Positions 16,179-64,000 of a stretch of DNA of 64,000 nt are shown piece after piece. The stretch comes from an uncultured virus (IMG/VR IMGVR_UViG_3300005663_000032) (lineage: Duplodnaviria > Heunggongvirae > Uroviricota > Caudoviricetes). The stretch's first letter is position 1, and every line of letters starts with the position of its first letter. Below the pieces are notes generated by a model. That model was not told the DNA's origin. It searched no databases and saw nothing but the letters and a program-made list of their open reading frames with translations. The DNA is taken from IMG/VR virus record IMGVR_UViG_3300005663_000032, one strand, 5' to 3'. Position numbers and translations under genes: made by a program.

Positions 16179-19100
16179 TGTGACTGATTTCTTTCAGCGT
16201 TTTTTCACCGAATACAAGGACGATGATGGTAATTTCAAATATACCAATAGAATAAATCGTATGGTCAGAGACGGCAGTCAATATTTACAGATTGATTATG
16301 ATGATGTATTATTATACGAGGCAGGAGATGGCGATATTTCCACTCCACTTTTTGAAAATCCTTATTTTGTTATGGATTATGCCAATATGGCACTGGGTGA
16401 GGCTGTACGCCAAGAATCAGTAGATTTTTATAATGATATGAATCGTGATGGGGTGGATTTTATGATTCAATTTGTGGACTTACCTATTGAGATAGGTCTC
16501 AGAGATCTGAGGGCAAAACACGTACGCACGATGCGCGTGATTGAGGGCATTGTGACTAGAACCACCGATATAAAGGGAATTATCCGCGAGGCTCAATTTT
16601 TCTGCAAGGAAAACAGAGAACACATAGTGGTGATGACTTTACTCGATGGAATATACTCGTCTCCCAACCAATGCAGTGTTCCGACCTGTAGAAGTAAACA
16701 ATTCTCATTAGAAATGGAATTTTCAAGTCAAGTAGATTGGCAATTGGTCACGCTTCAAGAAATGCCTGAAAACATCTCTGCAGGGCGAACTCCTGTATCA
16801 ATTAGATGTAGATTCACACAAGGGATGGTGGGTTCAGCTAATCCGGGAAACCGTATTGCAGTTACAGGAGTAATTCGGGCTCAATCAAGAAAAACTATCC
16901 AGAAAGGAAAAATCATGTTGTTGGATAAATGGATTGATACCAATCATGTGAAAGTATTGGGTTATCAACAAAAATATGAAGAAATCTTACCAGCAGAATT
17001 AAAAGAATTTGACGAGATGGCAAAAGATCCAAAACTATTTGATAAACTGGTAAATTCGTTTGCCCCAACCATTTATGGGTTAAAAGAGGTAAAAGCAGCA
17101 TTACTTTTATTTTTGTTGGGTGGTGTAGATAAAATACGTGCTGATGGAATTAAATTAAGGGGACAATCCAATATCTTGCTAGTTGGCGATCCAAGTATGG
17201 GAAAATGCTGTCGGGGGGCCACAACCTACGTATTTAGTAATAGAGGCATGAAATTACTTAGTGATTTTTATCAAACAGATGAAATTGAAAGTGACAAAGA
17301 ATTTTCATTGGGAATTGAAACATTTGATTTTCAATCATTCAATCCAAAGAACACGGTGGCAATTTATCAACGCAAACAAGCAAAAACTATAAAGATTACC
17401 AATAGTATAGGATTGGCGATAGAAGGAACTCCACATCACAGAATCATTATTCAAAACAATACTGGTGACATTGAATGGAAACAATTACAAGATATTCAAG
17501 AATCAGACCACATAGTTATTCGTGTGGGTAGCAATCTATTCAACAAATCACACAAAAAGATAACCTTCTCATCACCAATTCAAAAAATAAAGAATACGAA
17601 AAAAATAACAATTCCAAAAACAATGAATATGGACTTGGCTTATTACATTAGTCTATTGATTGGCGATGGCTGTCTAACCAAAAAAAGATGTATTGAATTT
17701 ACAAATGCAGATAAATATTTATTAGATCAATTCGAAAAATTATCTCTTGATCTATTTGGTCTGATTGGGTTTGTACAACTAAAGAAAGGATCTATTGCTT
17801 CTACTGTAGTAATTTCTTCTGTCACATTACAGCGGTTCTTCGATTATTTAGGGCTCGGTGGAAAATACTCTTTTGAGAAAACAATACCCCAACTTATCTT
17901 GGAATCACCAAAATCCGTTCAGATAGCGTGCTTGAAGGGATTATTTGATACCGATGGTGAAATTTCTAAATATGATGTGGCATACACATCAACATCTGAA
18001 CTATTGGTTATACAGGTTCAACTAATATTATTAAATCTAGGGATTGTCACATCTAAGAAAACAAAGACAACAACTCATAGGGATCTCTATCGACTTAGAA
18101 TTGTTGGTGCCTACATTCCTCTCTTCAAAGAATTAATTGGTTTTCGTTGTACACAAAAAAGAACGGCTCTCGACAAAACAAAAGCAAGAAACAAGACCAA
18201 CGTATGTGGAGTTCCAAATATCCAACGTCATTTATACAAATTGTGGTATTCTATTCCCGAGGAGGTTCGTTATAAAAATGGTTATAAAAAAGGATCAAAG
18301 GCAAGTATTGGTGGAGTCACGTTCACTTATCTACGTAGATATTTCTTAAAATCACAAAATCGAAACATTCCTGTTTATAAATTAGGTTCGCTATTAGAGG
18401 GTTTTGCAAAATTATATCCTAAAATTACTCAACTAAAAGAATATAAAAAACTAACAGTATTTACAAAGGGGATGTTCTTTACAAAATTAGCACATAAAAC
18501 AACAGGCATTGCAGATGTAATGGATTTTACAATTCCTGACACCGAATCTTTTACAGCAAATGGTATAATTAATCACAACAGCATATTGCTAAAGTATACT
18601 AAATCCCTATCTGATCGTGCAATATTCACCTCTGGGAAGGGCTCAACTGCAGCAGGTTTAACGGCTGCGATGTTACGGGACCCTGATACGGGCGAATTCA
18701 ATCTAGAAGCCGGGGCAATTGTACTTGCAGATGAAGGATATGTTTGTATTGATGAATTCGATAAGATGAGTGAGAATGATCGGTCTGCAATTCATGAGGC
18801 GATGGAACAACATCAGGTTTCAATATCCAAAGCTGGTATAGTGACAACATTAAATGCCCGAACAGGAATTTTAGCAGCCGCAAATCCAAAATATGGGCGT
18901 TATGAATCACATAGAACATTTATGGAAAATGTAAATTTACCTCCTACAATACTGTCTCGTTTTGATTTAATATTTCCATTACTGGATGATCCCAAACAGA
19001 GGGACGATGCTGCGCGAGTAGAATATATTCTTGCCAGTCATAGAATGGAAACAATAGCAAAAACAACCGAAACTTACTCTACTGCGGTAATGCAAAAATA

Positions 19101-19626
19101 TATTGCATATGCGAAATCAACATCATCCCCCATACTATCAGAGAGTGCTGAACAGGCTATCTTTGAGTTCTATATTAATCTAAGAGAACAGATTGGTGAC
19201 GATAAGGGACGAATCCCCATTACAGATCGTCAACTTGAAAGTATTATCAGATTGGCAGAAGCAAGGGCAAAAATCAATCTTAAAAAAACAGTTTCCAAAC
19301 AAGATGCATTGAAAGCAATTCAACTGGTACAATATTGTCTTGAACAGGTAACAACTGATCCAGAAACTGGAAAATTAGATATAGATTTCATGTATTCGGG
19401 AGAAAGTTCTACCAAACGGACTACAAGGAATAAGATGGAGAAAATCATGGCATTATTGAGTTTCTTCCAACGCACTTACTCGGGGCCATTCAGTGAGGAA
19501 GAATTTCTCAAAGAAGCAGAAAATGAGGGGTTGACTCAAGAATATACAATTGCTGTGTTGGAGCAGTTAAAAAGAGATGGAAAAATTTATACGCCGACGC
19601 CTGGCCGTCTGAAGCTTGCTTCATGA
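16162..19626 (+). CDS. mcm: MCM replicative helicase with intein
   Basis: Zn finger, LQEMPE, APTIYG, Walker A GDPSMGK|S, Walker B CIDEFDKM, AAANP, SRFDL, RQLES, C-terminal wHTH; likely start MSNADD at 16162. Confidence 0.97.
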   Translation: MSNADDVTDFFQRFFTEYKDDDGNFKYTNRINRMVRDGSQYLQIDYDDVLLYEAGDGDISTPLFENPYFVMDYANMALGEAVRQESVDFYNDMNRDGVDFMIQFVDLPIEIGLRDLRAKHVRTMRVIEGIVTRTTDIKGIIREAQFFCKENREHIVVMTLLDGIYSSPNQCSVPTCRSKQFSLEMEFSSQVDWQLVTLQEMPENISAGRTPVSIRCRFTQGMVGSANPGNRIAVTGVIRAQSRKTIQKGKIMLLDKWIDTNHVKVLGYQQKYEEILPAELKEFDEMAKDPKLFDKLVNSFAPTIYGLKEVKAALLLFLLGGVDKIRADGIKLRGQSNILLVGDPSMGKCCRGATTYVFSNRGMKLLSDFYQTDEIESDKEFSLGIETFDFQSFNPKNTVAIYQRKQAKTIKITNSIGLAIEGTPHHRIIIQNNTGDIEWKQLQDIQESDHIVIRVGSNLFNKSHKKITFSSPIQKIKNTKKITIPKTMNMDLAYYISLLIGDGCLTKKRCIEFTNADKYLLDQFEKLSLDLFGLIGFVQLKKGSIASTVVISSVTLQRFFDYLGLGGKYSFEKTIPQLILESPKSVQIACLKGLFDTDGEISKYDVAYTSTSELLVIQVQLILLNLGIVTSKKTKTTTHRDLYRLRIVGAYIPLFKELIGFRCTQKRTALDKTKARNKTNVCGVPNIQRHLYKLWYSIPEEVRYKNGYKKGSKASIGGVTFTYLRRYFLKSQNRNIPVYKLGSLLEGFAKLYPKITQLKEYKKLTVFTKGMFFTKLAHKTTGIADVMDFTIPDTESFTANGIINHNSILLKYTKSLSDRAIFTSGKGSTAAGLTAAMLRDPDTGEFNLEAGAIVLADEGYVCIDEFDKMSENDRSAIHEAMEQHQVSISKAGIVTTLNARTGILAAANPKYGRYESHRTFMENVNLPPTILSRFDLIFPLLDDPKQRDDAARVEYILASHRMETIAKTTETYSTAVMQKYIAYAKSTSSPILSESAEQAIFEFYINLREQIGDDKGRIPITDRQLESIIRLAEARAKINLKKTVSKQDALKAIQLVQYCLEQVTTDPETGKLDIDFMYSGESSTKRTTRNKMEKIMALLSFFQRTYSGPFSEEEFLKEAENEGLTQEYTIAVLEQLKRDGKIYTPTPGRLKLAS
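17206..18579 (+). mobile_element. 458-aa intein with LAGLIDADG homing endonuclease, inserted in the MCM Walker A
   Basis: Starts C after GK, ends IINHN before S; LLIGDG and GLFDTDG motifs; TPHH block B. Confidence 0.95.
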
Positions 19627-27557: not shown

Positions 27558-27592
27558 CATTTTAATAAAACTCTGCCCAAACATAAAAAAAT
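27558..27592 (+). repeat. 35-bp direct repeat, left copy
   Basis: CATTTTAATAAAACTCTGCCCAAACATAAAAAAAT identical to 45846-45880. Confidence 0.95.
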
Positions 27593-45845: not shown

Positions 45846-45880
45846 CATTTTAATAAAACTCTGCCCAAACATAAAAAAAT
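45846..45880 (+). repeat. 35-bp direct repeat, right copy
   Basis: Identical to 27558-27592; runs into the ATG at 45879. Confidence 0.95.
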
Positions 45881-54472: not shown

Positions 54473-55216
54473 ATGGCTGAATCACGTGATCATCGTCGAA
54501 AGAAAGGAACTAAACCTATCAAGGTCTCTGGTAAGCCGACGAAACACAAGGAGAAAAACTTCTCAATCAAACCTACCAATCGCTATTTACCTGAACTGAA
54601 AGAAGTGTCAGAAGATATGGGGGCTGATTTAATTGCGGGTGATATTGATGAAGTTGCTGCAGATAAAGAGCGAGCATTAGCGATTCGCGCTTCGGCCGAC
54701 AAAGAACTTCACAGCCTTGATAATGCAATTGTTCGTCCAATGCTAATAACACCAATGGCACAGGCAACTATAAACGATCCGCCTGAAAACGTACAACAGG
54801 CATTTGCACAATCTCGAATTCATATAGTAAGAACTAATGGTTTTTTAGAATCACAGAAGAAAAACCGGGAACATTATCTGAATCCACAGGTTATGGCGGC
54901 ACCTAATGTTAGACGGGATACAAAAATAATTCTGATTCAGGCAAAATTAGATGTTGAAACATACAAAATTAATTTAGATGAACCACTTATTGCAGATCAA
55001 TATGGAAATATTCCTCCATTGGCATCTCCAAAAGAAATGACTTTTCTTCACACAATAATGCCACAAGATCAACATTTGGAGGGAGATATTGCTCAACTAC
55101 ATTTATATTTATTGACAAACCTTAGACCTGATCAGAAACCCGATGCCATATCTCTTGCACAGGCATACATTCAATACCGATTGGCACTAATCGTACTTCG
55201 AAGAGGTAGTAACTAA
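54473..55216 (+). CDS. protein with RDHRR N-terminal motif
   Basis: SRDHRRKKGTK identical to the 52274 ORF; AAACACATGC motif upstream. Confidence 0.8.
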   Translation: MAESRDHRRKKGTKPIKVSGKPTKHKEKNFSIKPTNRYLPELKEVSEDMGADLIAGDIDEVAADKERALAIRASADKELHSLDNAIVRPMLITPMAQATINDPPENVQQAFAQSRIHIVRTNGFLESQKKNREHYLNPQVMAAPNVRRDTKIILIQAKLDVETYKINLDEPLIADQYGNIPPLASPKEMTFLHTIMPQDQHLEGDIAQLHLYLLTNLRPDQKPDAISLAQAYIQYRLALIVLRRGSN

Positions 55217-55291
55217 AAAACATATCTAGCTATGAAAAATCTACCCGTTCATCCTCAAAATTTTTAATAAACATGTTCAATCTACTATTAG

Positions 55292-55852
55292 ATGTTTGTG
55301 TCTGATGACCAGTGTTTGCTTTGCAGTGCCGGTAAAACCCCGATACGGCGGCACTGGTGTACCGATAGTCAAGTGGTTGTCGGATTACTTTTATTACAAT
55401 ATAAATTTGTAGGGGGAAATATACATTCATCTACACTAAGAAATGCATTAATGTCTTCTCCTCTTGATATGTCTCCATCGCGGGCGACAAAAACCATGAA
55501 GGCACTGAGAGAGGGAAATACTGCTAGATGTGTGGGATGTTATGATCCAAAATGTCTCAATTTTATATGTACTCATGAATGCGACCATGATTTGAATAAA
55601 TGTAAAAAATCATGTAGACATTCCTGTTTGTTTGATGGTTGCGAACATCTCTGTATTGAATGCAGTGAAAAATGCGAGGAAACACATAGTTATTTCATCA
55701 GCCTTGTGGATGTTTTGGACCCAAGAAGATCAAAAATATGGATTTCTCCAATAGGGTTACAATATTTAGATTATAAAATGGAAAACTTAGTACAAAAACG
55801 AGTGGAAATGCCACTGGAATATGAGGGATTATTGGCTGAAAACGCAATATAG
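55292..55852 (+). CDS. MarR-like winged-helix protein with Cys/His-rich insertion
   Basis: SPSRATKTMKALREG ... DPRRSKIWISPIG split by a Cys-rich segment. Confidence 0.6.
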   Translation: MFVSDDQCLLCSAGKTPIRRHWCTDSQVVVGLLLLQYKFVGGNIHSSTLRNALMSSPLDMSPSRATKTMKALREGNTARCVGCYDPKCLNFICTHECDHDLNKCKKSCRHSCLFDGCEHLCIECSEKCEETHSYFISLVDVLDPRRSKIWISPIGLQYLDYKMENLVQKRVEMPLEYEGLLAENAI

Positions 55853-55855
55853 GAA

Positions 55856-56314
55856 TTATATTTTCCGATAATCTAGCACAAATACTTCTTTATCAATTTC
55901 TAGAGGGTCTGTATACGTAATAACTTTCTTTAGTATTTCGCCTTTTTCAATTTTTCCTTCAATTTCACGCCAATCATTATATGATACAGAATATAATATA
56001 TAATGATCATTAAAAAGACTTTCAAAAGCCACAATTGGTTGAATCACCTCAAATAAATTTGGAATTACTCGCCATTTTTTCTTAACCCTTAAACACATTA
56101 TTTCATCCTCAGACCATCCCTTTTGATATACTCTAATCATGGGCATATATCCAGCGGGAGTAGTTAAAGCAGCGGGGTCATAATCAACTACAAATACAAC
56201 ATATTGTATATTTCTCCTGTTTTCAACTACTTGCACAAGGCGGTCTAAAATTACTAGAAAAACAGGGATACCAATTAGTGTAAAAATAACCCCGTAGATA
56301 AAATGTATTAGCAT
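55856..56314 (-). CDS. N-terminally anchored hypothetical protein
   Basis: N-terminal TM. Confidence 0.7.
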   Translation of the reverse strand: MLIHFIYGVIFTLIGIPVFLVILDRLVQVVENRRNIQYVVFVVDYDPAALTTPAGYMPMIRVYQKGWSEDEIMCLRVKKKWRVIPNLFEVIQPIVAFESLFNDHYILYSVSYNDWREIEGKIEKGEILKKVITYTDPLEIDKEVFVLDYRKI

Positions 56315-56426
56315 AGCTATAAGTTAATTTTTGTTTATTTAAATATTGGGAATAATTGCTTTTCATCCTTTTAAATTTCAACAATTATCCTCAATACTTA
56401 AATAATTATTATGAGATTGTTAAATA

Positions 56427-57248
56427 ATGAACTACAAACTTCTAATTATACTTTGTATATTAATAATTCCAACATCTTCGAAAGGGAATGTGGAACTATT
56501 TTCTGAACAATATGTAGTCGAGGTAGGCAATGACTGGGTGACTCTAAATGTTCCAGGGGATGTATATGGTTGGCTCAATCTAACTGCTGCAATCTCTAAC
56601 ACAACTGACCAAAACGATCCAACTCATCGAAATATATATGAACGAGTGCGTCTTATGTTTGGAAGTGCTGAATGTGGCTTGGGTCGATATGGCCCATATA
56701 TTAACCATGGCGATGAATGGCCACAAGATCACGTTATTGCATCATGTACTATGAAAATTGATCATACCGACTCCTCAGGTTCAATAATTTATGAAAAATA
56801 TCCTTCTTATTACACGCATTACTTCCCTTTAGAGATTCCATTCGATACGAATATAACCCTTTCAATGGAACTAAATGGAACTCATGGATTCTTTTATATA
56901 AATAATTTTTATATGAACACTACGGTAATATATCCCGAAGAATATGTTCCTCCTCAAGAGCGACATACTCGTATTGATATCGATAGGGCGCATTATAACG
57001 TATCAAATATCTGGGTAGTTGATTATACATATGCTCCTTACCAAATTAAAACCATAGTCGAAACGACTATTGCCACTGAAACCTATACTGTGAATTCAAC
57101 AATCAGCGAAACAACCACTGAAATCAGTACCGTATTTGTTTTGGATAATAAAAATTCACCAAATGCATTACCAATTCCAACATATTTGGTGATTTTAGCA
57201 CTCCCAATCATGATTTTCATAAGGAAAAAACTGACTAAAACTGTCTAA
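56427..57248 (+). CDS. surface protein with Thr-rich linker and LPIP-TM-basic sorting signal
   Basis: Signal peptide; SPNALPIPTYLVILALPIMIFIRKK. Confidence 0.85.
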   Translation: MNYKLLIILCILIIPTSSKGNVELFSEQYVVEVGNDWVTLNVPGDVYGWLNLTAAISNTTDQNDPTHRNIYERVRLMFGSAECGLGRYGPYINHGDEWPQDHVIASCTMKIDHTDSSGSIIYEKYPSYYTHYFPLEIPFDTNITLSMELNGTHGFFYINNFYMNTTVIYPEEYVPPQERHTRIDIDRAHYNVSNIWVVDYTYAPYQIKTIVETTIATETYTVNSTISETTTEISTVFVLDNKNSPNALPIPTYLVILALPIMIFIRKKLTKTV

Positions 57249-57286
57249 AACCTTTCTAGAAGCCCTGAACTCCTTCAAAACAGCCT

Positions 57287-57310
57287 AAAACTGCATAACC
57301 TTTATATATG
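57287..57310 (+). promoter_or_regulatory. promoter of the small-ORF array (AAAACTGCATAA + TTTATATA)
   Basis: Archaeal TATA box; same 12-mer at 60668. Confidence 0.65.
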
Positions 57311-57367
57311 ATAAATGCGTATATTATTATGAGAGACTACGTTCCGTAGGCCTCAAGGAGCTCTCTA

Positions 57368-57580
57368 ATGCCAACTAACTACAAATATCAAGCAACACAA
57401 AATGTGTCTAATGCTCGAAAAACTGTTGGAACAGACAATTTAGAGGGTGCAAAGGCACAGAAAACAAAAGGAAAAAACACAAATCCAGAAACAGGTCATC
57501 GAAGCTCTTGTAACTGCCTCGATTGTCGGCGTTACTGGGCAAGGATGAAAACTCCTGAATTTATTGAAAACCATTCTTAA
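57368..57580 (+). CDS. small protein with HxxxCxCxxC motif
   Basis: AGGAG upstream; HRSSCNCLDC. Confidence 0.65.
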   Translation: MPTNYKYQATQNVSNARKTVGTDNLEGAKAQKTKGKNTNPETGHRSSCNCLDCRRYWARMKTPEFIENHS

Positions 57581-57647
57581 AACCTCTCGAAAGAGGCTAA
57601 TTAGACTCTAATAGAGACCGTCGCAAGCGAATTGCAGGAAATCAAAA

Positions 57648-58016
57648 ATGCAAAACACATATAATTTTGAAAACATCGCACATTATCTTATTAGATATCT
57701 AGCAAACCTACATTGGTTAATAGATGGTAAAACTCACAAAATCATATTTGACAAAGGAATTTCACTTGATGTTACTAATTATTTAGTAGCTCGCCCCAAA
57801 GCAATTGAGTGGGGGATTCCACACTCCTCGCAATTTAATGCGACCGATTATGGAATATGTGCATTCGAATTTATTCTTACGAATAAAGAATCAATGGATC
57901 GCTATTTTGTATTCGGATATGAGGACAAACCCCTAATCCAAGAGCTGCCTATTGTGTCTGACGGTACTGACATTTCTTTACCGATGCTTATAGATGCATT
58001 AATGGCAACCAAATAA
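57648..58016 (+). CDS. hypothetical protein (repeat-flanked)
   Basis: Exactly fills the space between repeat copies. Confidence 0.7.
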   Translation: MQNTYNFENIAHYLIRYLANLHWLIDGKTHKIIFDKGISLDVTNYLVARPKAIEWGIPHSSQFNATDYGICAFEFILTNKESMDRYFVFGYEDKPLIQELPIVSDGTDISLPMLIDALMATK

Positions 58017-58042
58017 AACATCTGCCCGAAAGGGCCTAATTC

Positions 58043-58258
58043 ATGTCTATACAAAAAGAACTAACACTTGAAGAACTTTTAGATAAAATCTATCCTCTTG
58101 AGGAATGGATTATTATTATAGATGAAATGCCAGTACCTGATGAGCACAAATACGTTTACTCTCTTGGAGTAAAATCAATCGCTGAATCAGGCCAAGAACT
58201 CACTGTAAAACGAGTTCAACACTTAATAGAAAATCAGATTAATTTTATATATACCTAA
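58043..58258 (+). CDS. hypothetical protein (repeat-flanked)
   Basis: ATG directly after CTAATTC. Confidence 0.65.
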   Translation: MSIQKELTLEELLDKIYPLEEWIIIIDEMPVPDEHKYVYSLGVKSIAESGQELTVKRVQHLIENQINFIYT

Positions 58259-58378
58259 AATTCTTAAACCTCTCGAAAGAGACTAATTCAGCCCCAAAAG
58301 GAACCTTGCTACAATCGATCGATAAGTACTTGGTTCCTAATAAGGGCGCAAATTAAAACCTTCAGAAGAGACTGATTC

Positions 58379-58696
58379 ATGACAGACAAAATCTTTCATA
58401 TCATAGACGAATCAATCGACTATTCAATTAAAGTCGAGGTTGCAGTGGCTGATGAAATCATTCGGTTTCAAAAAACAGGTACAATAATTGCAATTCCTGG
58501 CACAATCGTGGGGGCTCGCACTGACTGGGCTCCACCAATTATTAATCACTTTATAATGAGTGCCATTCTTGGACACCAATACGATGATGTGATTGATTAT
58601 GATAGTATATTATACAATCCATCATGTCCCAATGATGAACTAAAAAATAAAACAGTTATTGGTCTATGTGATCCCTGTTGGGCTCAACTTAGCTAA
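58379..58696 (+). CDS. hypothetical protein (repeat-flanked)
   Basis: Stop just before a repeat copy. Confidence 0.65.
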   Translation: MTDKIFHIIDESIDYSIKVEVAVADEIIRFQKTGTIIAIPGTIVGARTDWAPPIINHFIMSAILGHQYDDVIDYDSILYNPSCPNDELKNKTVIGLCDPCWAQLS

Positions 58697-58746
58697 CAAC
58701 TCATGCCCGAAAAGGGCCTAATTAAGATCTGAAAACAGATCAAAAC

Positions 58747-59010
58747 ATGGACAACACAGTTGCCCCCCTAGATCTCAGAGAGATCACACTCCGAAAGGAG
58801 ATTGCACATGCACTTGAGGTGCTTATGGAGTACTATGAGCGCCAAGCGAGTTTAGAAGAACGCGATGCAGAAATTGAATTCTGCTGTGGCTTAAATGCCC
58901 GAAACCCATGTCTTTACTGTAATGATCCTGACGATGAAGGGGATTATTACCTTGTTTGGTTTCGAAACTCAAGCTGCCGCGCAGTAAGAAGGCTGTTCTA
59001 CATTCATTAA
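58747..59010 (+). CDS. Cys-rich hypothetical protein (repeat-flanked)
   Basis: CC..CxxC..C; bounded by repeats. Confidence 0.65.
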   Translation: MDNTVAPLDLREITLRKEIAHALEVLMEYYERQASLEERDAEIEFCCGLNARNPCLYCNDPDDEGDYYLVWFRNSSCRAVRRLFYIH

Positions 59011-59103
59011 CATACCCGCCCGAAAAGGGCCTAATTAGCTTACTAACAATAAGACGTAATATTTTAGAATCGTATATATTCTTAGGAGATATCAGAGACC
59101 TTA

Positions 59104-59322
59104 ATGTTAGATCCATTAGATCCACGAATTGCCGCAATGATGCTGAGAATACTTTCAGAAAAATACAACATGCCAAGCCTTCCAAATAATACTAAACTTG
59201 AAGAGTGTTGGAAAATACTAGATATTCAACGAAAAAAATATAAAATTCCAACAGAAAACTTTGATTTTGCATTCTTATTTTGCGAAGCCCAAATCGAAAG
59301 ACTCGATAAAGCTCGTAATTAA
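59104..59322 (+). CDS. hypothetical protein (repeat-flanked)
   Basis: Bounded by repeats. Confidence 0.6.
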   Translation: MLDPLDPRIAAMMLRILSEKYNMPSLPNNTKLEECWKILDIQRKKYKIPTENFDFAFLFCEAQIERLDKARN

Positions 59323-59383
59323 CTCTTGGAAGACTGCCCGAAAAGGGCCTAATTAACTTATCAAATAATAAGAATACATTCTG

Positions 59384-59514
59384 CTGTAGTTTCGTTCGTC
59401 CGTAGGTATTGATTAATCAATAGAGGCGAACAACATGGGCCTAAGTGGTCCATGGTTCTATAGACTAATTCTATAGATCTGAAATTACAGTTCCCAAAGA
59501 TAGCCCTAATGGCT
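59384..59514 (+). ncRNA. candidate multibranch structured RNA
   Basis: 10-bp closing helix with a G-U pair, three inner hairpins, one further hairpin. Confidence 0.65.
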
Positions 59515-59599
59515 GAGGAGAACAACATATTTAGTTATTTTAAATCTAACAAATTTAATCTAGTCGTTTGTGGGGTCGTAATCCATAGGAAAAAACAAA

Positions 59600-59884
59600 A
59601 TGTACCAAAACAATGCACAAAATATCAACCTATGGACTTTCGTCCAGAACAAAAGACACATTGGTAGAACAATGTGGAAGAAACAAAGAGCCGCAAAACA
59701 AAAGCAACAAAGATACACAAAAATTAATTTAGGGCTCAAAACAATCTTAAATCAATTTTTATCTATTTTTAAGAAATCATATCAAAAGATATACAACAAA
59801 GTATATCAAGCTCATTTCGATGGGCTTAGATCTCTTAAGGAGAAATTAAATTGGGTATCTCGCCTAATAGGATTAAGGAGCTAA
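59600..59884 (+). CDS. basic hypothetical protein
   Basis: TAGGAAAAAACAAAATG leader. Confidence 0.6.
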   Translation: MYQNNAQNINLWTFVQNKRHIGRTMWKKQRAAKQKQQRYTKINLGLKTILNQFLSIFKKSYQKIYNKVYQAHFDGLRSLKEKLNWVSRLIGLRS

Positions 59885-60084
59885 GGGTGATGATCTTAAT
59901 GTTAGATTACCCCGAAACTCTGAGAGGCCAACTCGAATTGGCCTGTACTACACTTGAAGAAAAAGTCGAAGATAAAAAAATATATAACAAACTCCCTACA
60001 GATGAACAAATGGCAATGATCAAATCTATTCAGGAGCTCAAACACATAATTACAAATGAAACAGAAAAATTCTTAGATGATTAA
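59851..60084 (+). CDS. hypothetical protein
   Basis: AGGAG at 59876 suggests a start near 59887. Confidence 0.55.
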   Translation: MGISPNRIKELRVMILMLDYPETLRGQLELACTTLEEKVEDKKIYNKLPTDEQMAMIKSIQELKHIITNETEKFLDD

Positions 60085-60177
60085 AGGATTAACTTCCCAC
60101 AAAACTAATATAATTAAAAACTAATTCGCTTACTAAATAAGCCGTAATATCGGGATCGTATGCTCAGGAAAAAACAA

Positions 60178-60543
60178 ATGAAAGACCTTAACGAACTAAA
60201 AGAAGCTCTGTTGAAACTTCATAGAGCCAACACCTGCCCATTATCTACCGATCCATTTGAGGGAGTAGTAAAACTCTCAGATGTGGTAGAAATCGGAGAT
60301 GATATAATACTGAATAACCAAATCATTGAATTAGACGATGAATGGTATCTCAACACCGTTGTTGCATTTAGTAAATTCAAAGACATTGCCGCAAAATATG
60401 ATGAAACTGGCAACCGAACAAGATTACTAAAAATAGCTGGTGAAAATTATCGTAGATTTGCGATTGCTCCACATTACGGGCTAGCTGTTGCGGAAGATAT
60501 CAGAAAGAAAAATGAGGAATTCCAAAACAACCCTAGACTATAG
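60178..60543 (+). CDS. hypothetical protein (repeat-led)
   Basis: CAGGAAAAAACAAATG leader favours the 60178 start. Confidence 0.65.
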   Translation: MKDLNELKEALLKLHRANTCPLSTDPFEGVVKLSDVVEIGDDIILNNQIIELDDEWYLNTVVAFSKFKDIAAKYDETGNRTRLLKIAGENYRRFAIAPHYGLAVAEDIRKKNEEFQNNPRL

Positions 60544-60711
60544 GTCTAAACGGCCTAACCTTTAAATAATATAAATAAATTATTTCTCTCGGCGAAAAAA
60601 CATACTAGATTATTCAACAATCTAATTCAACATAACTGCTCAGACAGTTATTCTGAATATGGTCAACAAAACTGCATAAATCCTCATAAATTTAACATAA
60701 GGCAGTGACTA

Positions 60712-61620
60712 TATTTCCTCTCTTAACTGAGAAGTCCGTGACTGGTGACAGTACGGCCCTCGCGAGAAGTCGTCCGGTTATGTGCGCCGGCTTATTAGGG
60801 AAAAAATAAGTGAGAAAATACAGGTAGAAACACGAAATACGAACTAGTCCTATCGATCGATCGATTTTAGTCCGTATAGGAATCCTGTCGCCCAATGAAT
60901 ATGAACAAGGTAAGGACAACCACTCATATGAGGGAAAAGAACACACTATTTACTTTAACTATAATTCGTCTCGGGGCAAACCGAGAAAACCGTAGTTGGC
61001 GACTTCTATGGGCCCGCGAAAGCGATCGCAGCGTAACGACTCAAGGGTAAAACAACATTGAGTTCAGTTCTAGACTGAAGAACGTTAATGTGCACATTAC
61101 ATACGGGAAAACAACGATTAATTCTCCATGAAGCATCAAAACTTCAACATAAATGGACGTAGTTCTGGGGGAATCTCAGAACAGAAGTGGAAAGGACGCC
61201 TTTCCGGAATCAGCGGAGATTCAAAACATTTTCTCCGTACAAAAAATAGAGGTCTTTCAAGAAGACCATGCCCCTGTGTTAATGAATGCACGGGCCACTA
61301 AATGATTCAGCCATTGACACCCTTACCATACCAATGGCAATTAAACAACTGAAACAAATAAGTTGATCTCTGCGGAGAACACACTTACGAGATATGAAGG
61401 TTGTTTGAAATAGTAACTTCGGTTATCTATTTCTACTATTGTGCTAAACTTGCACAGCCAGCCAATAGTGAGATAAACTCGATTAAGCAACAAGCAATGT
61501 CAGTATTTACATACAAGAGGACATCGAATTTACCGCTCAAAGAGTCTATTTCTTCACAAAAAGTGAGGCATTATTGAACCAAATACTTGTGAGTATTTTG
61601 CAATAATGGGCTGATAACGT
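60712..61620 (+). ncRNA. candidate large (~900 nt) structured non-coding RNA
   Basis: No + strand ORF of 60 aa or more; more than 15 hairpins incl. cUUCGg and GNRA loops; long-range helix; upstream promoter motif. Confidence 0.75.
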
Positions 61621-61631
61621 AGGCGTACGCT

Positions 61632-61859
61632 ATGAGAAGATCAGTAAAGAAATTAGATGAGTTTTATAAAGAACACAACGTGGTTGTGAACGGAGTACAA
61701 CTCGCAATAACATCAAGGCAACAGGAAATTGTAACGGCTTGCGTGGCCGAAAACGGATTCCAGTTGAAAGACATTAAAAAAGTCCGACAGATGGGTCATG
61801 GCAGTGTGGCAATCGATTTAATGATTGGCAAGACATTGTACACAGAGAACTCATCATAA
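61632..61859 (+). CDS. hypothetical protein
   Basis: 75-aa ORF directly after the structured region. Confidence 0.6.
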   Translation: MRRSVKKLDEFYKEHNVVVNGVQLAITSRQQEIVTACVAENGFQLKDIKKVRQMGHGSVAIDLMIGKTLYTENSS

Positions 61860-61955
61860 AACAATTCCATATCATAACAAACTAATTCGGTGGCCGAAAA
61901 GGCCACAGACAACTACTACGAACGTAGACACGAGTGAGCGGGCCTCACAGAATTC

Positions 61956-62270
61956 ATGACAGAATTCAACCGATTTCGCCCCTACGGGGCCCTAATTCAT
62001 ATGTGGTTCAGAAAAAGAAAAATCCAAAACAATACATATGTAGATTTAACTGATCCTGCATATCCTGTAATTCGAGTAAAAATTCCCGCAAAACAAATCG
62101 AATGGAAGTGGAAAAAGAATCGGCTTACTATTATAATCGATGGAGTTGATTATACTCCAAGTACAATAAAAAATATTCCTAATCTAAAAACACGAAATTT
62201 TATCAGAAACAAATTGCCAACTGTTATCGAATTAAACGCGATCGTTGACAGACTTTTAGCAACCCAATAA
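61956..62270 (+). CDS. hypothetical protein (repeat-flanked)
   Basis: Bounded by repeats. Confidence 0.65.
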   Translation: MTEFNRFRPYGALIHMWFRKRKIQNNTYVDLTDPAYPVIRVKIPAKQIEWKWKKNRLTIIIDGVDYTPSTIKNIPNLKTRNFIRNKLPTVIELNAIVDRLLATQ

Positions 62271-62334
62271 CAAATACACTCGAAAGAGCCTAATTAGCTT
62301 ATTAACAATAAGACCATTTGCAGGAGAAACAAAC

Positions 62335-62553
62335 ATGCCAATTGTAGACATAAATGATATTATCGGTGATGATGGCGAAGACACAATATCAATAGTGTTA
62401 GTCAGAACATTTGAATATGAAGGGCTTTCAAGAGTTCCATCAAAAATAAATTATTTTATTAATAATAAACCCGTGACTAAGAAAGAATTCAACGAGATGA
62501 ATGACGATATGAATGATCTTGCCGGAGTTCCTTCAAATGATAGCTACAAATAA
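62335..62553 (+). CDS. acidic hypothetical protein (repeat-flanked)
   Basis: CAGGAGAAACAAACATG leader. Confidence 0.65.
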   Translation: MPIVDINDIIGDDGEDTISIVLVRTFEYEGLSRVPSKINYFINNKPVTKKEFNEMNDDMNDLAGVPSNDSYK

Positions 62554-62627
62554 CAACACATGCCCGAAAAGGGCCTAATTAGCTTACTAACAATAAGACG
62601 CGCATACGCACTTGCAGGAGAAACAAA

Positions 62628-63449
62628 TTGACCGTTGAAGCAATCTCAGAACCTCTTTATAAGATCGTTCTGAAGAAATCACAAATCGAAGCAAATGGCA
62701 TCAGCCCGTTATTCAAAGGGCTTGCACTTGATAACCTTGAAATTGTTGAAGGTTATTCATATATGGATAAAGAAGAGTTTGTTCACAAATTCAGAAGATC
62801 CATTGTACACAATACAAAAACAGACGCTATTGATCCAAAAACAGGAAAAAAACCATATAAAAATCATATGTATTTTAATCCATGTCCTGACTCCGTTGGC
62901 AGATTCCAACGAAGAGATGGCAAATGGATTTATCCAAATGGACACAGAAATTGTATTGTACCACGCAGAATGTATCGAGCAGTTATTGTCACCCGTTTGG
63001 CTCCTCAGTTTCGTGAGATGCTAAACAAAGGTGAATTCAAAGGCTTGAGAGAGGCATATATTAATCCTCTTGTAAAAGTCGCAAGAATACTCCCCATGTT
63101 GATCAGACATGCAGACCCAGTTATTTATCGAAGACCAAACGACTTCACATTTATACCTGGATTTGAGGCAATTGAATGCAAGAAACATTATGGATTTAAG
63201 AAAAAAATAAATCTTACACATATGTTGAAATATGACCAAAATCTTGGAGAGGAAGAAAGAACATTCATCGATGATGAACTCAAGAAACTCCCTAAAATTT
63301 TGAAATGTGATGCAAAATGTACAAGTTTTAAAAACGTAAAATCCAGCGAGAGAAATTTTCTTAATAAATTGGCTCAGAGTCCAAACACACCAGATGCTTG
63401 GGTAGATCCAGAGATAAAAGATATTTTCTCAATCTCAATTTATTACTGA
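62628..63449 (+). CDS. hypothetical basic protein with scattered Cys/His
   Basis: TTG start after CAGGAGAAACAAA; 273 aa. Confidence 0.75.
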   Translation: MTVEAISEPLYKIVLKKSQIEANGISPLFKGLALDNLEIVEGYSYMDKEEFVHKFRRSIVHNTKTDAIDPKTGKKPYKNHMYFNPCPDSVGRFQRRDGKWIYPNGHRNCIVPRRMYRAVIVTRLAPQFREMLNKGEFKGLREAYINPLVKVARILPMLIRHADPVIYRRPNDFTFIPGFEAIECKKHYGFKKKINLTHMLKYDQNLGEEERTFIDDELKKLPKILKCDAKCTSFKNVKSSERNFLNKLAQSPNTPDAWVDPEIKDIFSISIYY

Positions 63450-63559
63450 AAAATTAGTGGATAGTCTTCTGCCACATTCAAGAGAGACATTACCTCACTT
63501 CTTACAAGAAGATTAATAACTTTTTTATATAATATAGAAATATAGAAATATAGAATTAT

Positions 63560-63682
63560 CGGGAGCTAGCTCAGTCAGGTAGAGCGCTTATAGTTCTTTT
63601 GAAATTTGATCCCTTACGGGCACACATCAGAATTTGGACATTGAGGATGTAGAGGTCATGGGTTCAAATCCCATTCTCCCGA
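63560..63682 (+). tRNA. tRNA-like gene with ~55-nt insert in a degenerate anticodon arm (identity not assignable)
   Basis: CGGGAG/CTCCCG acceptor, TAGCTCAGTCAGGTAGAGC D arm, ATGGG-TTCAAAT-CCCAT T arm. Confidence 0.75.
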
Positions 63683-63694
63683 ATATTTCACAAT

Positions 63695-63786
63695 GCTGGA
63701 GAATAATCATTCCTTCTCATTTAGATCCCGCAGGGGCACGATTTGGAATTTGGTACACTTGAAAGGTTCAATCCCTTTCTCCAGCG
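63695..63786 (+). ncRNA. tRNA-like RNA lacking the D arm, carrying the same insert
   Basis: GCTGGAG/CTCCAGC acceptor stem, AAAGG-TTCAATC-CCTTT T arm. Confidence 0.65.
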
Positions 63787-63797
63787 CTTTTTCACAA

Positions 63798-63835
63798 TGC
63801 TGTAGGATTCAAGACTTCGAACTCTTCCTATGGCA
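63798..63835 (+). ncRNA. minihelix-like hairpin with T-loop-like TTCGAAC
   Basis: TGCTGTAGGA/TCCTATGGCA stem; same TTTCACAATGCTG lead-in as the previous unit. Confidence 0.5.
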
Positions 63836-63848
63836 CTTTTTTATTTCA

Positions 63849-63934
63849 GCGAAGATGCATTTCATTCCTTTTCATTTAGATCCCGCAAGGGCACGATTTG
63901 GAATTTGGTTACAAAACTATCCCCGCATCTTCGC
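63849..63934 (+). ncRNA. stem-closed RNA with the same conserved insert
   Basis: Perfect 10-bp GCGAAGATGC/GCATCTTCGC stem; 45/47 nt identical to 63708-63754. Confidence 0.65.
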
Positions 63935-64000
63935 ATTATTTCGATCTAATTGATCCCCCTAACAGGTGGCATTAAACTATGGAAGAATTTTTAACACAAA

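What the first reader, a model, noticed from the sequence alone, without database searches (positions are those of the whole stretch)
57583..62627. Cassette-like array of orphan genes punctuated by a conserved structured RNA/DNA motif
Seen: about 10 intergenic copies, mostly just after a TAA stop: hairpin 1, then CTAATT, then hairpin 2 (CTTAY-TAACAA-TAAG or variants), often a small third hairpin, then YAGGA-A-rich-start. Hairpin 1 covaries (GCCC-GAAA(A)-GGGC vs CTC-GAAA-GAG), while CTAATT is invariant, so structure plus a single-stranded core is selected. It matches no CRISPR, attC or ribozyme consensus I know. Hypotheses: mRNA processing or self-cleavage sites that cut a polycistron into units, translation enhancers/RBP sites, or recombination sites for gene shuffling (cf. 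T4 PeSL elements).
Basis: partly seen in the sequence, partly recalled or inferred. Interest (0 to 1): 0.85.

Follow-up and report, generated by a model that had tools for sequence, protein, structure and literature searches.

The report
Repeated hairpin-CTAATT punctuation between viral genes
A block of small unknown genes in what looks like an uncultivated archaeal virus is punctuated by about a dozen copies of a short RNA hairpin joined to the fixed word CTAATT, most likely marks that divide long transcripts into separately stable, translatable messages.

Summary
Between 57585 and 62597, on the + strand only, there are 10 copies of a GC-rich hairpin (GAAA or GAAAA loop in 8 of 10) joined to CTAATT (one CTGATT). 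Three more copies have CTAATT plus a downstream hairpin only. None lies elsewhere in the window. Hairpin 1 shows compensatory changes, and the hairpin after CTAATT has unrelated stems in different copies.

The context is a virus-like, probably archaeal element: MCM with intein, an intron-bearing tRNA, BRE/TATA promoters, mostly leaderless genes. It lies on a 130.9 kb metagenome contig with no reachable relatives.

The copies lack this genome's type of TATA box at promoter distance. No T-run follows any cassette. Strong BRE/TATA promoters sit only at 57301 and 60561. I therefore read the motif as an element inside two polycistronic transcripts.

Best guess (0.4): endonuclease cleavage in the CUAAUU linker. 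This would leave upstream mRNAs capped by the hairpin, and downstream mRNAs either leaderless (ATG 1-3 nt after CTAATT in three copies) or carrying hairpin 2 plus a Shine-Dalgarno site.

No RNA data or related genomes exist, so the function is inferred. Closest analogues are T4-type PeSLs, halovirus HF2 intergenic repeats and intercistronic processing sites. I rate it a new variant of a known kind, of moderate interest.

The parts
57295..57308 (+). BRE/TATA promoter (ATAACC-TTTATATA) heading the first polycistronic unit, 60 nt before the first cassette gene (57368)
   Evidence: PWM score 10.0. It has the same BRE-like TAAC plus TATA as the promoter before the tRNA at 63524.
57585..57616 (+). 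Copy 1. Hairpin 1 is TCTC-GAAA-GAGG (one U-G pair), CTAATT is at 57597-57602, and hairpin 2 is CTCT-AAT-AGAG. A leader with GCAGGA follows, then ATG at 57648.
   Evidence: (42.8 bits)
58024..58041 (+). Copy 2 (short form). Hairpin 1 is GCCC-GAAA-GGGC and CTAATT is at 58036-58041. ATG at 58043 follows after 1 nt, with no SD.
   Evidence: 51.5 bits; hairpin -7.5 kcal/mol, z -2.2
58271..58288 (+). Copy 3. Hairpin 1 is TCTC-GAAA-GAGA and CTAATT is at 58283-58288. A gene-less 62 nt long hairpin (58291-58352) follows.
   Evidence: 41.1 bits; z -2.6 for 58255-58382
58360..58377 (+). Copy 4 (degenerate, short form). The stem is CTTC-AGAA-GAG with a U-G pair and the hexamer is CTGATT at 58372-58377. 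ATG at 58379 follows after 1 nt.
   Evidence: 32.8 bits
58705..58741 (+). Copy 5. Hairpin 1 is GCCC-GAAAA-GGGC, CTAATT is at 58718-58723, and hairpin 2 is GATCTG-AAAA-CAGATC. ATG at 58747.
   Evidence: 44.0 bits; both hairpins in the MFE structure, z -3.8, 0 of 200 shuffles as stable
59018..59053 (+). Copy 6. Hairpin 1 is GCCC-GAAAA-GGGC, CTAATT is at 59031-59036, and hairpin 2 is CTTA-CTAACAA-TAAG. A 67 nt leader with AGGAG follows, then ATG at 59104.
   Evidence: 39 nt identical to copy 13; 50.2 bits
59336..59372 (+). Copy 7. Hairpin 1 is GCCC-GAAAA-GGGC, CTAATT is at 59349-59354, and hairpin 2 is CTTAT-CAAATA-ATAAG. A 245 nt stretch without a convincing gene follows, up to ATG at 59600.
   Evidence: 44.2 bits
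60121..60142 (+). Copy 8 (no hairpin 1). CTAATT is at 60121-60126 and hairpin 2 is GCTTA-CTAAA-TAAGC. A leader with AGGA follows, then ATG at 60178.
   Evidence: family D5; 18.6 bits, E 0.14
60555..60568 (+). Second BRE/TATA promoter (CCTAACC-TTTAAATA), heading the unit that holds the about 1 kb structured non-coding stretch and genes 61632-63449
   Evidence: D6, repeat of the 57288 promoter; score 9.8
60622..60651 (+). Copy 9 (no hairpin 1). CTAATT is at 60622-60627, followed after 4 nt by a 7 bp hairpin ATAACTG-CTCAGA-CAGTTAT. It lies about 30 nt into the transcript predicted from the 60561 promoter.
61882..61906 (+). Copy 10 (no hairpin 1). CTAATT is at 61882-61887 and the hairpin is GTGGCC-GAAAA-GGCCAC. 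It opens a gene-less 104 nt unit.
   Evidence: (D5)
61978..61997 (+). Copy 11 (short form). Hairpin 1 is GCCCC-TAC-GGGGC, then one C, then CTAATT at 61992-61997. ATG at 62001 follows after 3 nt.
   Evidence: (29.4 bits)
62279..62312 (+). Copy 12. Hairpin 1 is CTC-GAAA-GAG, CTAATT is at 62290-62295, and hairpin 2 is CTTATT-AAC-AATAAG. GCAGGAG follows, then ATG at 62335.
   Evidence: (47.3 bits)
62562..62597 (+). Copy 13. Hairpin 1 is GCCC-GAAAA-GGGC, CTAATT is at 62575-62580, and hairpin 2 is CTTA-CTAACAA-TAAG. GCAGGAG follows, then TTG at 62628 (a 273 aa protein; the start is confirmed by a 72% homologue).
   Evidence: (46.0 bits)
57368..63449 (+). The punctuated gene block: 12 small ORFan genes (61-122 aa) plus a 273 aa gene, all on the + strand. 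It has three gene-less CTAATT-bounded units (58289-58371, 59355-59464, 61888-61991) and a non-coding stretch at 60590-61630.
   Evidence: The gene calls are my own, made from ORFs, leaders and codon signal.

Best explanation
The hairpin-CTAATT units are intercistronic RNA elements inside two long polycistronic transcripts of a virus-like, probably archaeal, element. The transcripts start at the BRE/TATA promoters at 57301 and 60561. There is no oligo-T stop until about 63521.

Proposed mechanism: a host or viral endoribonuclease cuts in the single-stranded A/U-rich linker CUAAUU(NN), which is held open between hairpin 1 and hairpin 2. The upstream message then ends in the GC-rich GNRA-type hairpin, which blocks 3'-to-5' decay.

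The downstream message takes one of two forms. It may be leaderless, where the ATG follows CTAATT by 1-3 nt (3 copies); leaderless is the default mode for this genome's other genes. Or it may start with hairpin 2 as a 5' protective stem, followed by an AGGAG Shine-Dalgarno site.

Shown here: the repeat family, its strand and position, the pairing pattern, and the absence of own-type TATA boxes and of T-runs. Inferred: transcription as operons, the cleavage and its position, and the stabilising roles. The repeated modules probably also serve as homology for gene gain and loss, but that is secondary.
For: 1. The motif occurs only on the coding strand. It lies 4-13 nt after TAA stops in 8 of 10 copies and always before the next start.

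2. The pairing is kept by compensatory changes. Two stems use U-G pairs, which on the other strand would be C-A mismatches. That points to the sense RNA, or the sense single strand, and not to a duplex DNA protein site.

3. The architecture is hairpin, then 6-8 unpaired A/U-rich nt, then hairpin. Hairpin 2 stems are unrelated in sequence between copies (9 of 14 against 10 of 57, p 0.001). Both hairpins appear in the MFE structure of copy 5 (z -3.8).

4. The copies are not promoters of this genome's kind. I built a TATA matrix from 16 of its own promoter boxes; its 11 training genes score 4.7-9.0 bits. At the right distance upstream of CTAATT the best scores are only -6.5 to 3.7 bits, and 2 of 13 exceed the background 90th percentile. 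CTAATTNN itself scores -3.5 to -6.2.

5. Top-scoring (>=9.8 bits) TATA boxes with a BRE-like TAAC lie only at 57301, 60561 and 63524, at the heads of the units.

6. No T run of 5 or more lies in any motif-bearing spacer. There are 2 in 57300-63500, both inside one ORF, against 121 in the window. T-runs do follow the tRNA-like genes.

7. Three internal genes have no SD and start 1-3 nt after CTAATT. At least 11 other genes of the window have a TATA box 19-23 nt before the ATG, so they are leaderless.

8. There is precedent in archaea. In a methanogen, 5'P-seq mapped processing sites in 5'UTRs and intergenic regions of operons. Most lay in single-stranded A/U-rich sequence upstream of the RBS, with U at +2 (PMC5499594, passages read). 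CUA|AUU would put U at +2.
Against: No RNA evidence exists. No RNA run holds this DNA, so neither the operons nor any RNA end is shown. No related genome could be found, so conservation and covariation rest on paralogous copies within one genome, which fall into 2-3 subfamilies.

Hairpin 1 is short (3-5 bp). Hairpin 2 of the CTTA type is weak and is not in the MFE fold of 3 of 4 such leaders. Whole-leader z-scores are unremarkable (-0.07 to -0.65).

Three copies lack hairpin 1, so it cannot be essential to whatever acts on CTAATT.

The invariance of a 6 nt word is stricter than the loose A/U-rich preferences known for archaeal processing sites. CUAAUU fits the published UNMND|NUNAY motif only partly (4 of 6 specified positions, by my own alignment).

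No ribonuclease gene was recognised in the window.

A top-scoring TATA 8-mer inside a gene at 58244, and a weaker one at 59539, could be internal promoters.
Confidence: 0.4

Rival explanations
1. Composite promoter/attenuator modules, the archaeal counterpart of T4-type PeSLs or halovirus HF2 intergenic repeats. In this reading each copy is a weak promoter. Its TATA-like A-rich box overlaps the upstream stop codon, hairpin 1 lies between box and start site, and CTAATT is the initiator. Transcription starts just after CTAATT.
For: In PeSLs the stop codon lies in an AT-rich stretch, the stem-loop sits between or over the promoter boxes, and SD plus start follow (PMC2839356, section 14 read). That is the same order of parts as here.

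HF2 intergenic repeats are promoters with a strongly conserved, essential block around the start site (PMC8707807, Results read).

A/T-rich octamers (AAATAAAA, AAATTAAAA, TTCTTAAA) lie 20-25 nt before the end of CTAATT in several copies. A start after CTAATT would give leaderless mRNAs in the three short copies.
Against: The genome's own TATA matrix finds no box at promoter distance in 11 of 13 copies, and CTAATTNN itself scores below the 90th percentile of all 8-mers in the window.

The confident promoters of this genome (57301, 60561, 63524, 45821) carry no CTAATT at their start sites.

Copies 59349 and 61992 have nothing A/T-rich at the right distance.

A promoter does not explain why hairpin 1 covaries, why it abuts CTAATT with 0-1 nt between, or why hairpin 2 is kept. 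Hairpins are not known to terminate archaeal RNA polymerase (established knowledge, recalled).
Confidence: 0.2
2. Operator for a virus-encoded RNA-binding protein. Hairpin 1, with its GAAA or GAAAA loop, plus CUAAUU would be bound by a small basic protein of the block. The protein would repress or time translation, as T4 RegA or the MS2 coat protein do. Alternatively it would modify elongating polymerase, as with a nut-boxB-like site.
For: The loop sequence is kept in 8 of 10 copies and the adjoining hexamer in 9 of 10, which suits protein recognition.

In three copies the motif overlaps the ribosome's landing zone at the start codon.

The block encodes very basic small proteins: 57368-57580, and 59600-59884 with a K/R/Q-rich stretch.

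The GCCC-GAAAA-GGGC hairpin resembles the lambda boxB stem with its GAAAA pentaloop. That resemblance is recalled from memory and was not tested.
Against: In the long copies the motif lies 39-67 nt before the start codon, outside a ribosome footprint. About ten sites per 6 kb is unlike nut sites. No RNA-binding domain was detected in any protein of the block. ORF 59600-59884 has the weakest coding signal of the 12.
Confidence: 0.12
3. Passive repeats. Serial duplication and recombination spread one 3' trailer and 5' leader (stabilising hairpin plus SD) through a fast-evolving ORFan block. In this reading CTAATT has no function of its own.
For: Two copies are 100% identical over 39 nt (59018-59056 and 62562-62600). 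Leader fragments recur without the full motif (59097/59892 and 60108/61869). Degenerate and gene-less copies exist (58372; units 58289-58371 and 61888-61991).
Against: The flanking genes are unrelated. Hairpin stems have diverged with compensation while CTAATT stayed fixed in 12 of 13 copies. That is the signature of selection on the hexamer and on pairing, not of recent copying alone.
Confidence: 0.13
4. DNA-level recombination sites. CTAATT would be the crossover core and the flanking hairpins, folded in single-stranded DNA, the recognition structure of a site-specific recombinase that inserts, excises and shuffles promoterless ORFan cassettes, in the manner of an integron.
For: The layout is an array of unrelated, same-strand, mostly promoterless small genes behind one strong promoter, each followed by a structured repeat with a fixed core. 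Three gene-less units are bounded by CTAATT. The core is partly palindromic (CTAATTAG in 4 copies).
Against: No recombinase, transposase or HUH nuclease was recognised in the window or 2.6 kb beyond.

The hairpins are 10-17 nt, not attC-like 57-141 nt bipartite palindromes. No inverse core is present.

Public DNA contigs of the three runs that hold the region show no alternative joints. They are assemblies and drop rare variants.

The tight register with stop and start codons, and the SD tail, are expression features.
Confidence: 0.08

Closest known systems
PeSL (promoter-early stem-loop) regulatory cassettes of T4-type phages (Arbiol et al. 2010, PMC2839356; Comeau et al. 2014, PMC4122927)
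   Same: Both are short repeated intergenic modules concentrated in ORFan-rich regions. The order of parts is the same: upstream stop codon in an A/T-rich stretch, a stem-loop whose sequence varies but whose pairing is kept (G-T pairs noted there too), then SD and start codon. In both, repeats flank unrelated small genes and offer homology for modular shuffling.
   Different: PeSLs are built round a sigma-70 -35/-10 promoter, and the stem-loop acts as a bacterial terminator or attenuator. Here the host machinery looks archaeal, no sigma-70 or own-type TATA promoter is present in the copies, there is no T-run, and an invariant hexamer abuts the hairpin. Shuffling and mini-circles could not be tested.
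Halovirus HF2 class I/II intergenic repeats (Russ, Pfeiffer, Dyall-Smith 2021, PMC8707807)
   Same: Both are families of conserved intergenic repeats in an archaeal virus, found only between genes and oriented with the genes. Both have a strongly conserved block near where the mRNA 5' end forms.
   Different: HF2 repeats contain a BRE and a TATA box at -26 and were shown to be promoters. The copies here fail the TATA test and are defined by hairpins, which HF2 class I/II repeats are not (only IR4.5 has an inverted repeat).
Intercistronic mRNA processing and stabilisation sites: archaeal 5'UTR/IGR processing sites (Qi et al. 2017, PMC5499594), the plastid intercistronic expression element (PMC2230500, abstract seen only), and T7 RNase III sites (recalled)
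   Same: All have an A/U-rich single-stranded cut site between or beside stem-loops in the spacers of polycistronic transcripts, upstream of the RBS. All yield separately stable, translatable units.
   Different: Those sites are degenerate in sequence or are long duplexes (RNase III). A fixed 6 nt word repeated about 13 times with a GNRA-type hairpin joined to it has not been described in the papers I could search. Processing here is inferred, not shown.
Integron attC sites and gene cassettes
   Same: Both are arrays of promoterless, same-strand, unrelated small genes behind one promoter, each followed by a structured repeat with a short conserved core. Gene-less units occur in both.
   Different: There are no RYYYAAC/GTTRRRY core pair, no long bipartite palindrome and no integrase nearby. 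The repeat is in register with translation signals.

Membership tests
Integron attC / gene cassette array | Inverse core R'' (RYYYAAC) and core R' (GTTRRRY) that pair with each other (feature list recalled from established knowledge) | tested here: not met
   By reading the 13 copies: the fixed word is CTAATT (complement AATTAG). It has no GTT triplet and no inverted partner upstream. Hairpin 1 is a separate 3-5 bp stem.
Integron attC / gene cassette array | Imperfect palindrome of about 57-141 nt with L''/L' arms and extrahelical bases | tested here: not met
   Hairpin 1 is 10-13 nt and hairpin 2 is 11-20 nt.
Integron attC / gene cassette array | Adjacent IntI-type tyrosine recombinase and attI | tested here: inconclusive
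   No recombinase family appears among the 74 window and L056 proteins scanned with Pfam, nor in the PHROG scans. Bases 66581-130905 of the contig could not be read.
T4-type PeSL | Sigma-70-like -35/-10 early promoter within the repeat | tested here: not met
   The sigma-70 scan of 55000-64000 gives 28 sites against 32.3 in shuffles. One listed site overlaps a copy (59043-59070, 9 of 12 matches); none recurs across copies. The transcription signals of the genome are BRE/TATA.
T4-type PeSL | Stable stem-loop in the spacer after the upstream stop codon, followed by SD and start | tested here: met
   8 of 10 hairpins lie 4-13 nt after TAA. An AGGA(G) tail is present in 6 leaders.
T4-type PeSL | Mediates insertion, deletion or replacement of genes between close relatives; mini-circles | not testable with these tools
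   No relative was found. Contigs of 3 DNA runs show no joints.
HF2-type intergenic repeat promoters | BRE plus TATA box about 26 nt before the start site inside the repeat | tested here: not met
   Own-genome TATA matrix: 2 of 13 copies are above the background 90th percentile, and CTAATTNN scores -3.5 to -6.2 bits.
CRISPR array | Identical repeats of 23-50 nt separated by non-coding spacers of similar, short length | tested here: not met
   The spacing between CTAATT sites is 89-1260 nt, and the units hold ORFs with coding signal.
Known RNA families incl. self-cleaving ribozymes (Rfam 15) | Match to a curated covariance model | tested here: not met
   The only match is tRNA at 63560-63682, both at gathering thresholds and at E up to 1 over 57200-64000.
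Bacterial intrinsic terminator / archaeal oligo-T terminator | Hairpin followed by a U-tract, or a run of 5 or more T | tested here: not met
   None of the 10 terminator-like sites is a motif copy on the + strand. No T run of 5 or more lies in any motif spacer. CTAATT follows the stem directly.
Intercistronic endonucleolytic processing site (archaeal uPSS/iPSS type) | Monophosphate 5' ends mapped in a single-stranded A/U-rich stretch, U at +2, upstream of the RBS | not testable with these tools
   No RNA run holds the DNA. Sequence context is compatible: an unpaired CUAAUU between hairpins, upstream of AGGAG.

The most novel reading that the evidence does not exclude
The block is a gene-cassette platform of an archaeal virus. 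CTAATT would be the crossover core of an unrecognised site-specific recombination system, and the flanking sense-strand hairpins its folded single-strand recognition structure. ORFan cassettes, including the three gene-less units, would then be captured, excised and reshuffled behind one promoter. That would be an integron-like system with a new site type and an unknown recombinase.
Probability: 0.07. Interest if true: 0.85.

Novelty: new variant of a known kind. Interest (0 to 1): 0.45.

Why it matters
How archaeal viruses organise the expression of their many small unknown genes is almost unstudied. The only dissected case I found in my searches is the HF2 repeat promoters.

If the reading is right, a fixed hairpin-plus-hexamer would cut long transcripts into hairpin-capped messages. 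It would also create leaderless mRNAs by processing rather than by initiation. That would be a compact, transferable 'insulator' between cistrons. It would also be a handle for finding the responsible archaeal or viral ribonuclease.

It would in addition give a simple sequence signature for delimiting early-gene cassettes in uncultivated archaeal viruses. If the motif is merely a duplicated trailer and leader, the finding is ordinary.

Tried and rejected
**Relatives**
- blastn of 57300-63500 against 50,697 phage records: no match.
- Exact motif in IMG/VR: 0.
- The motif pattern in metagenome contigs gave 11 stretches. Three are the window's own contig. Eight are single hits of GC 0.45-0.63 with no shared protein, so chance.
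- Protein-anchored scans of IMG/VR with the 273, 334, 535 and 832 aa proteins: none.
- The MCM scan gave 53 loci at 33-44% identity that share only MCM (1 of 90 window ORFs). They have no motif.
- Genome contigs with the 273 aa family: none.
- Genome contigs with the MCM C-terminal half: one irrelevant 24% hit. The host lineage therefore stays unknown.

**Access to the genome**
- No whole genome or record is held for the window, so contig bases 66581-130905 were not examined.

**RNA and read evidence**
- No RNA holder is listed for the region.
- Laying Logan contigs of 3 DNA runs (one study, one possibly the source) showed no variants or joints. Contigs simply break at the repeats.

**Alignments**
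- Two narrower MAFFT alignments (A2, A3) put the loop gap at the 5' end and were discarded.

**Hairpin count**
- A first hairpin count allowing G-U pairs was too permissive: about 45% of any CTAATT sites passed. I replaced it with Watson-Crick-only criteria.

**The 273 aa protein at the end of the array**
- I asked whether it is the enzyme acting on the motif. It has no Pfam or PHROG family. The ESM Atlas gave only hits at or below 0.81.
- There are only two homologues in 1.84 billion representatives.
- The AlphaFold model is unusable (pLDDT 39.5), so no fold search was made.

**Other ideas tested or dropped**
- The stretch before hairpin 1 resembles the AAACACATGC element of the second promoter class. 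At up to 2 mismatches that word is too common to judge (104 against 83 expected).
- My first impression that the ORF at L056 7636-8019 is TnpB-like got no Pfam support.
- Earlier-findings look-ups returned nothing.
- Ideas considered and dropped by inspection: bulge-helix-bulge splice sites (no 3 nt bulges flank the 4 bp helix), Sm site, K-turn, C/D box, and TIGR arrays (the units hold protein genes).

Full report
**1. What is there**

The window is bases 1-64000 of a 130,905 bp metagenome contig, LAZR01000084.1. The match coordinates coincide with window coordinates. No whole genome or record is held for it.

Nearly all long ORFs lie on the + strand. Recognisable genes are few:
- an MCM helicase interrupted by a LAGLIDADG intein (16105-19626);
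- a subtilase;
- RusA;
- a PD-(D/E)XK nuclease;
- an HNH endonuclease;
- two giant ORFs of 2010 and 3657 aa with LamG and NHL repeats.

The transcription signals are archaeal in type. TTTAWATA boxes preceded by a TAAC-containing stretch stand about 30 nt before a tRNA gene (63524) and before gene blocks (45821, 57301, 60561). At least 11 genes have a T-rich TATA box 19-23 nt before their ATG, so they are leaderless.

The one tRNA that Rfam recognises carries 62 nt where the model has 13 in the anticodon arm. T-runs follow the tRNA-like genes.

I therefore treat the element as a virus-like replicon of an archaeon. This is inference: no hallmark capsid or terminase gene was recognised, and the host lineage is unknown.

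**2. The observation**

The pattern GAAARRGNCTAATT with up to 1 mismatch gives 8 matches. All are on the + strand between 57589 and 62580. Shuffles give 0.80 expected, and 0 of 100 shuffles reach 8.

Reading the sequence gives 10 copies of a short GC-rich hairpin followed, after 0-1 nt, by CTAATT. One copy has CTGATT. Three more copies have CTAATT followed by a hairpin but no upstream hairpin (60121, 60622, 61882).

A covariance model of the 10 copies was run without filters over the window and 2.6 kb beyond. It finds only these copies, plus 60105-60149 weakly. It finds none in 606 kb of 53 MCM-encoding IMG/VR loci.

Position relative to genes:
- Eight of 10 hairpins begin 4-13 nt after a TAA stop.
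- The next start codon follows CTAATT by 1, 1 and 3 nt in three 'short' copies (58036, 58372, 61992).
- In the other copies that precede a gene it follows by 23-67 nt; after copy 7 (59349) the next start, ATG 59600, is 245 nt away. Most of the 23-67 nt leaders carry a second hairpin 1-4 nt after CTAATT, and an AGGA(G) 6-10 nt before the start.

**3. Structure**

For hairpin 1, 90% of cells pair, against 77% after shuffling. Two of four pairs change on both sides. The covariation score is 0.428 against 0.212, and 0 of 500 shuffles reach it. Sliding the partners drops pairing to 10-55%.

The copies are paralogues in 2-3 subfamilies (GCCC/GGGC, (T)CTC/GAG(R), GCCCC/GGGGC), so this is a small number of independent events. 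Two stems contain U-G pairs, which exist only on the sense strand. The loop is GAAA or GAAAA in 8 of 10 copies.

For hairpin 2 the argument is different. The stems are unrelated in sequence, yet a Watson-Crick stem of at least 4 bp starts 1-4 nt after 9 of the 14 + strand CTAATT sites in 57300-63500. Elsewhere the figure is 10 of 57 (p 0.001).

Single-sequence folds recover hairpin 1 in all nine spacers folded that contain it. They recover hairpin 2 clearly only where it is GC-containing. Whole-leader z-scores range from -3.8 to +0.5.

**4. The genes**

Twelve small ORFs (61-122 aa) and one of 273 aa fill the units.
- None has a Pfam or PHROG family.
- None resembles another (best E 0.16).
- 11 of the 12 small ORFs, and the 273 aa ORF, have an in-frame codon signal.
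- The 122 aa protein is alone among 5.8 billion clusters.
- The 273 aa protein has two homologues: 72% identity on a 1535 bp contig, and one more distant.

Three CTAATT-to-CTAATT units hold no gene: 58289-58371, 59355-59464 and 61888-61991.

**5. Promoter or RNA element?**

I built a TATA matrix from 16 of the genome's own boxes. Its 11 training genes score 4.7-9.0 bits. At promoter distance upstream of the end of CTAATT, the 13 copies score -6.5 to 3.7. Two exceed the background 90th percentile (3.11). CTAATTNN itself scores -3.5 to -6.2.

In 56300-64000, top-scoring (>=9.8 bits) boxes with the TAAC stretch are at 57301, 60561 and 63524. A top-scoring 8-mer without it lies inside a gene at 58244, and a weaker one lies at 59539. 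The bacterial promoter and terminator scan is at background.

T runs of 5 or more number 121 in the window but only 2 in 57300-63500, both inside one ORF and none in a motif spacer. T content is lower in this stretch, so the depletion is modest.

Together this reads as two polycistronic units with the motif inside them:
- from about 57330 to about 60545, possibly reading on;
- from about 60590 to about 63520.

**6. Mechanism proposed**

An unpaired A/U-rich hexamer clamped between two hairpins, in the spacer of an operon and upstream of the RBS, is the classical anatomy of an endonucleolytic processing and stabilisation site.

In a methanogen, 5'P-seq mapped such sites in 5'UTRs and intergenic regions. 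Most were single-stranded and A/U-rich, with U at +2, and aCPSF1 was suspected (PMC5499594, passages read). A cut at CUA|AUU would fit the U+2 rule.

This model accounts for four things:
- the near-absent spacing (0-1 nt) between hairpin 1 and the hexamer, which gives a 3' cap for the upstream message;
- hairpin 2, which gives a 5' cap for the downstream message;
- the sense-strand pairing;
- the three SD-less genes that start 1-3 nt after CTAATT, which would become leaderless, the mode this genome uses elsewhere.

I give it 0.4. None of the RNA steps is shown.

**7. Rivals**

The composite promoter reading has strong precedents. In PeSLs the stop codon, AT-rich stretch, embedded stem-loop, SD and start come in the same order (PMC2839356, abstract and section 14 read; PMC4122927, passages). 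HF2 repeats are promoters with an essential conserved block at the start site (PMC8707807, outline and Results read). It fails the TATA test here and leaves the hairpins unexplained (0.2).

The other rivals are:
- a protein operator (0.12);
- passive spread of a trailer and leader (0.13);
- DNA recombination sites (0.08).

They are set out in the Rival explanations section. The identical 39 nt in two copies and the scattered leader fragments show that recombination or duplication has moved these modules, whatever their function.

**8. Comparison and novelty**

The element is not a member of attC, CRISPR, any Rfam family, sigma-70 PeSLs or HF2-type promoters (see the membership rows). It works most like an intercistronic processing element and looks most like a PeSL transposed to archaeal rules.

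My four literature searches for a described equivalent listed none with a fixed hexamer joined to a GNRA-type hairpin. Subscription journals are not covered.

I rate it a new variant of a known kind, with interest 0.45. It is real and tidy, and it is a good entry to RNA processing in archaeal viruses. It is confined to one uncultivated genome, and no functional data are possible at present.

Noticed in passing
window 60590-61630: About 1 kb lies directly behind the strong BRE/TATA promoter at 60555-60568 with no convincing ORF. The three ORFs of 51-58 aa have weak or absent codon signal. The stretch is dense in short GC hairpins with GNRA/UUCG-type loops. The MFE is -264 kcal/mol against -221 +/- 7 in 20 shuffles, z -6.1. 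There is no Rfam match at E up to 1. It is a candidate large structured non-coding RNA of an archaeal virus, perhaps more unusual than the assigned motif.
   Followed up: partly
window 63560-63950: Three tRNA-like units share a roughly 48 nt insert (63591, 63707, 63862; 65-96% identity, D2). Only the first is called a tRNA by Rfam, with 62 nt in place of 13 in the anticodon arm. ARAGORN calls none. Units 2 and 3 fold with 9 bp terminal stems but lack a D arm. Each unit, or the cluster, is followed by a T-run.
   Followed up: partly
window, upstream of genes at 2608, 9632, 12205, 23961, 24371, 54473 (also 19681): A second promoter class: a conserved AAATTCAAACACATGC-like box lies 6-8 nt before a T-rich TATA box, which lies 19-22 nt before the ATG. 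It is probably the binding site of a stage-specific regulator for leaderless genes.
   Followed up: partly
window 58291-58352: A 62 nt near-perfect long hairpin (outer GCCC/GGGC, inner GGAACC/GGTTCC, centre ATCGATCGAT) sits between a full motif copy and a degenerate one. It looks like a remnant of a lost cassette or a small inserted palindromic element (z -2.6).
   Followed up: no
window 27567-27592 and 45853-45878: The same roughly 26 nt word (AAAACTCTGCCCAAACATAAAAAAAT-like) precedes two distant genes, 27642 and 45879.
   Followed up: no
window 38826/40386 and 39795/41355: Identical contexts of T-runs recur 1560 nt apart inside the 3657 aa NHL-repeat ORF. This indicates a large internal tandem duplication.
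   Followed up: no
window 16105-19626: The MCM helicase gene is interrupted by an intein with a LAGLIDADG homing endonuclease domain.
   Followed up: no
window 57227-57298: CTAAAAC recurs three times just upstream of the 57301 promoter (D12). A similar TAAAAC(C) precedes the CTC-type hairpins. It may be a regulator site.
   Followed up: no
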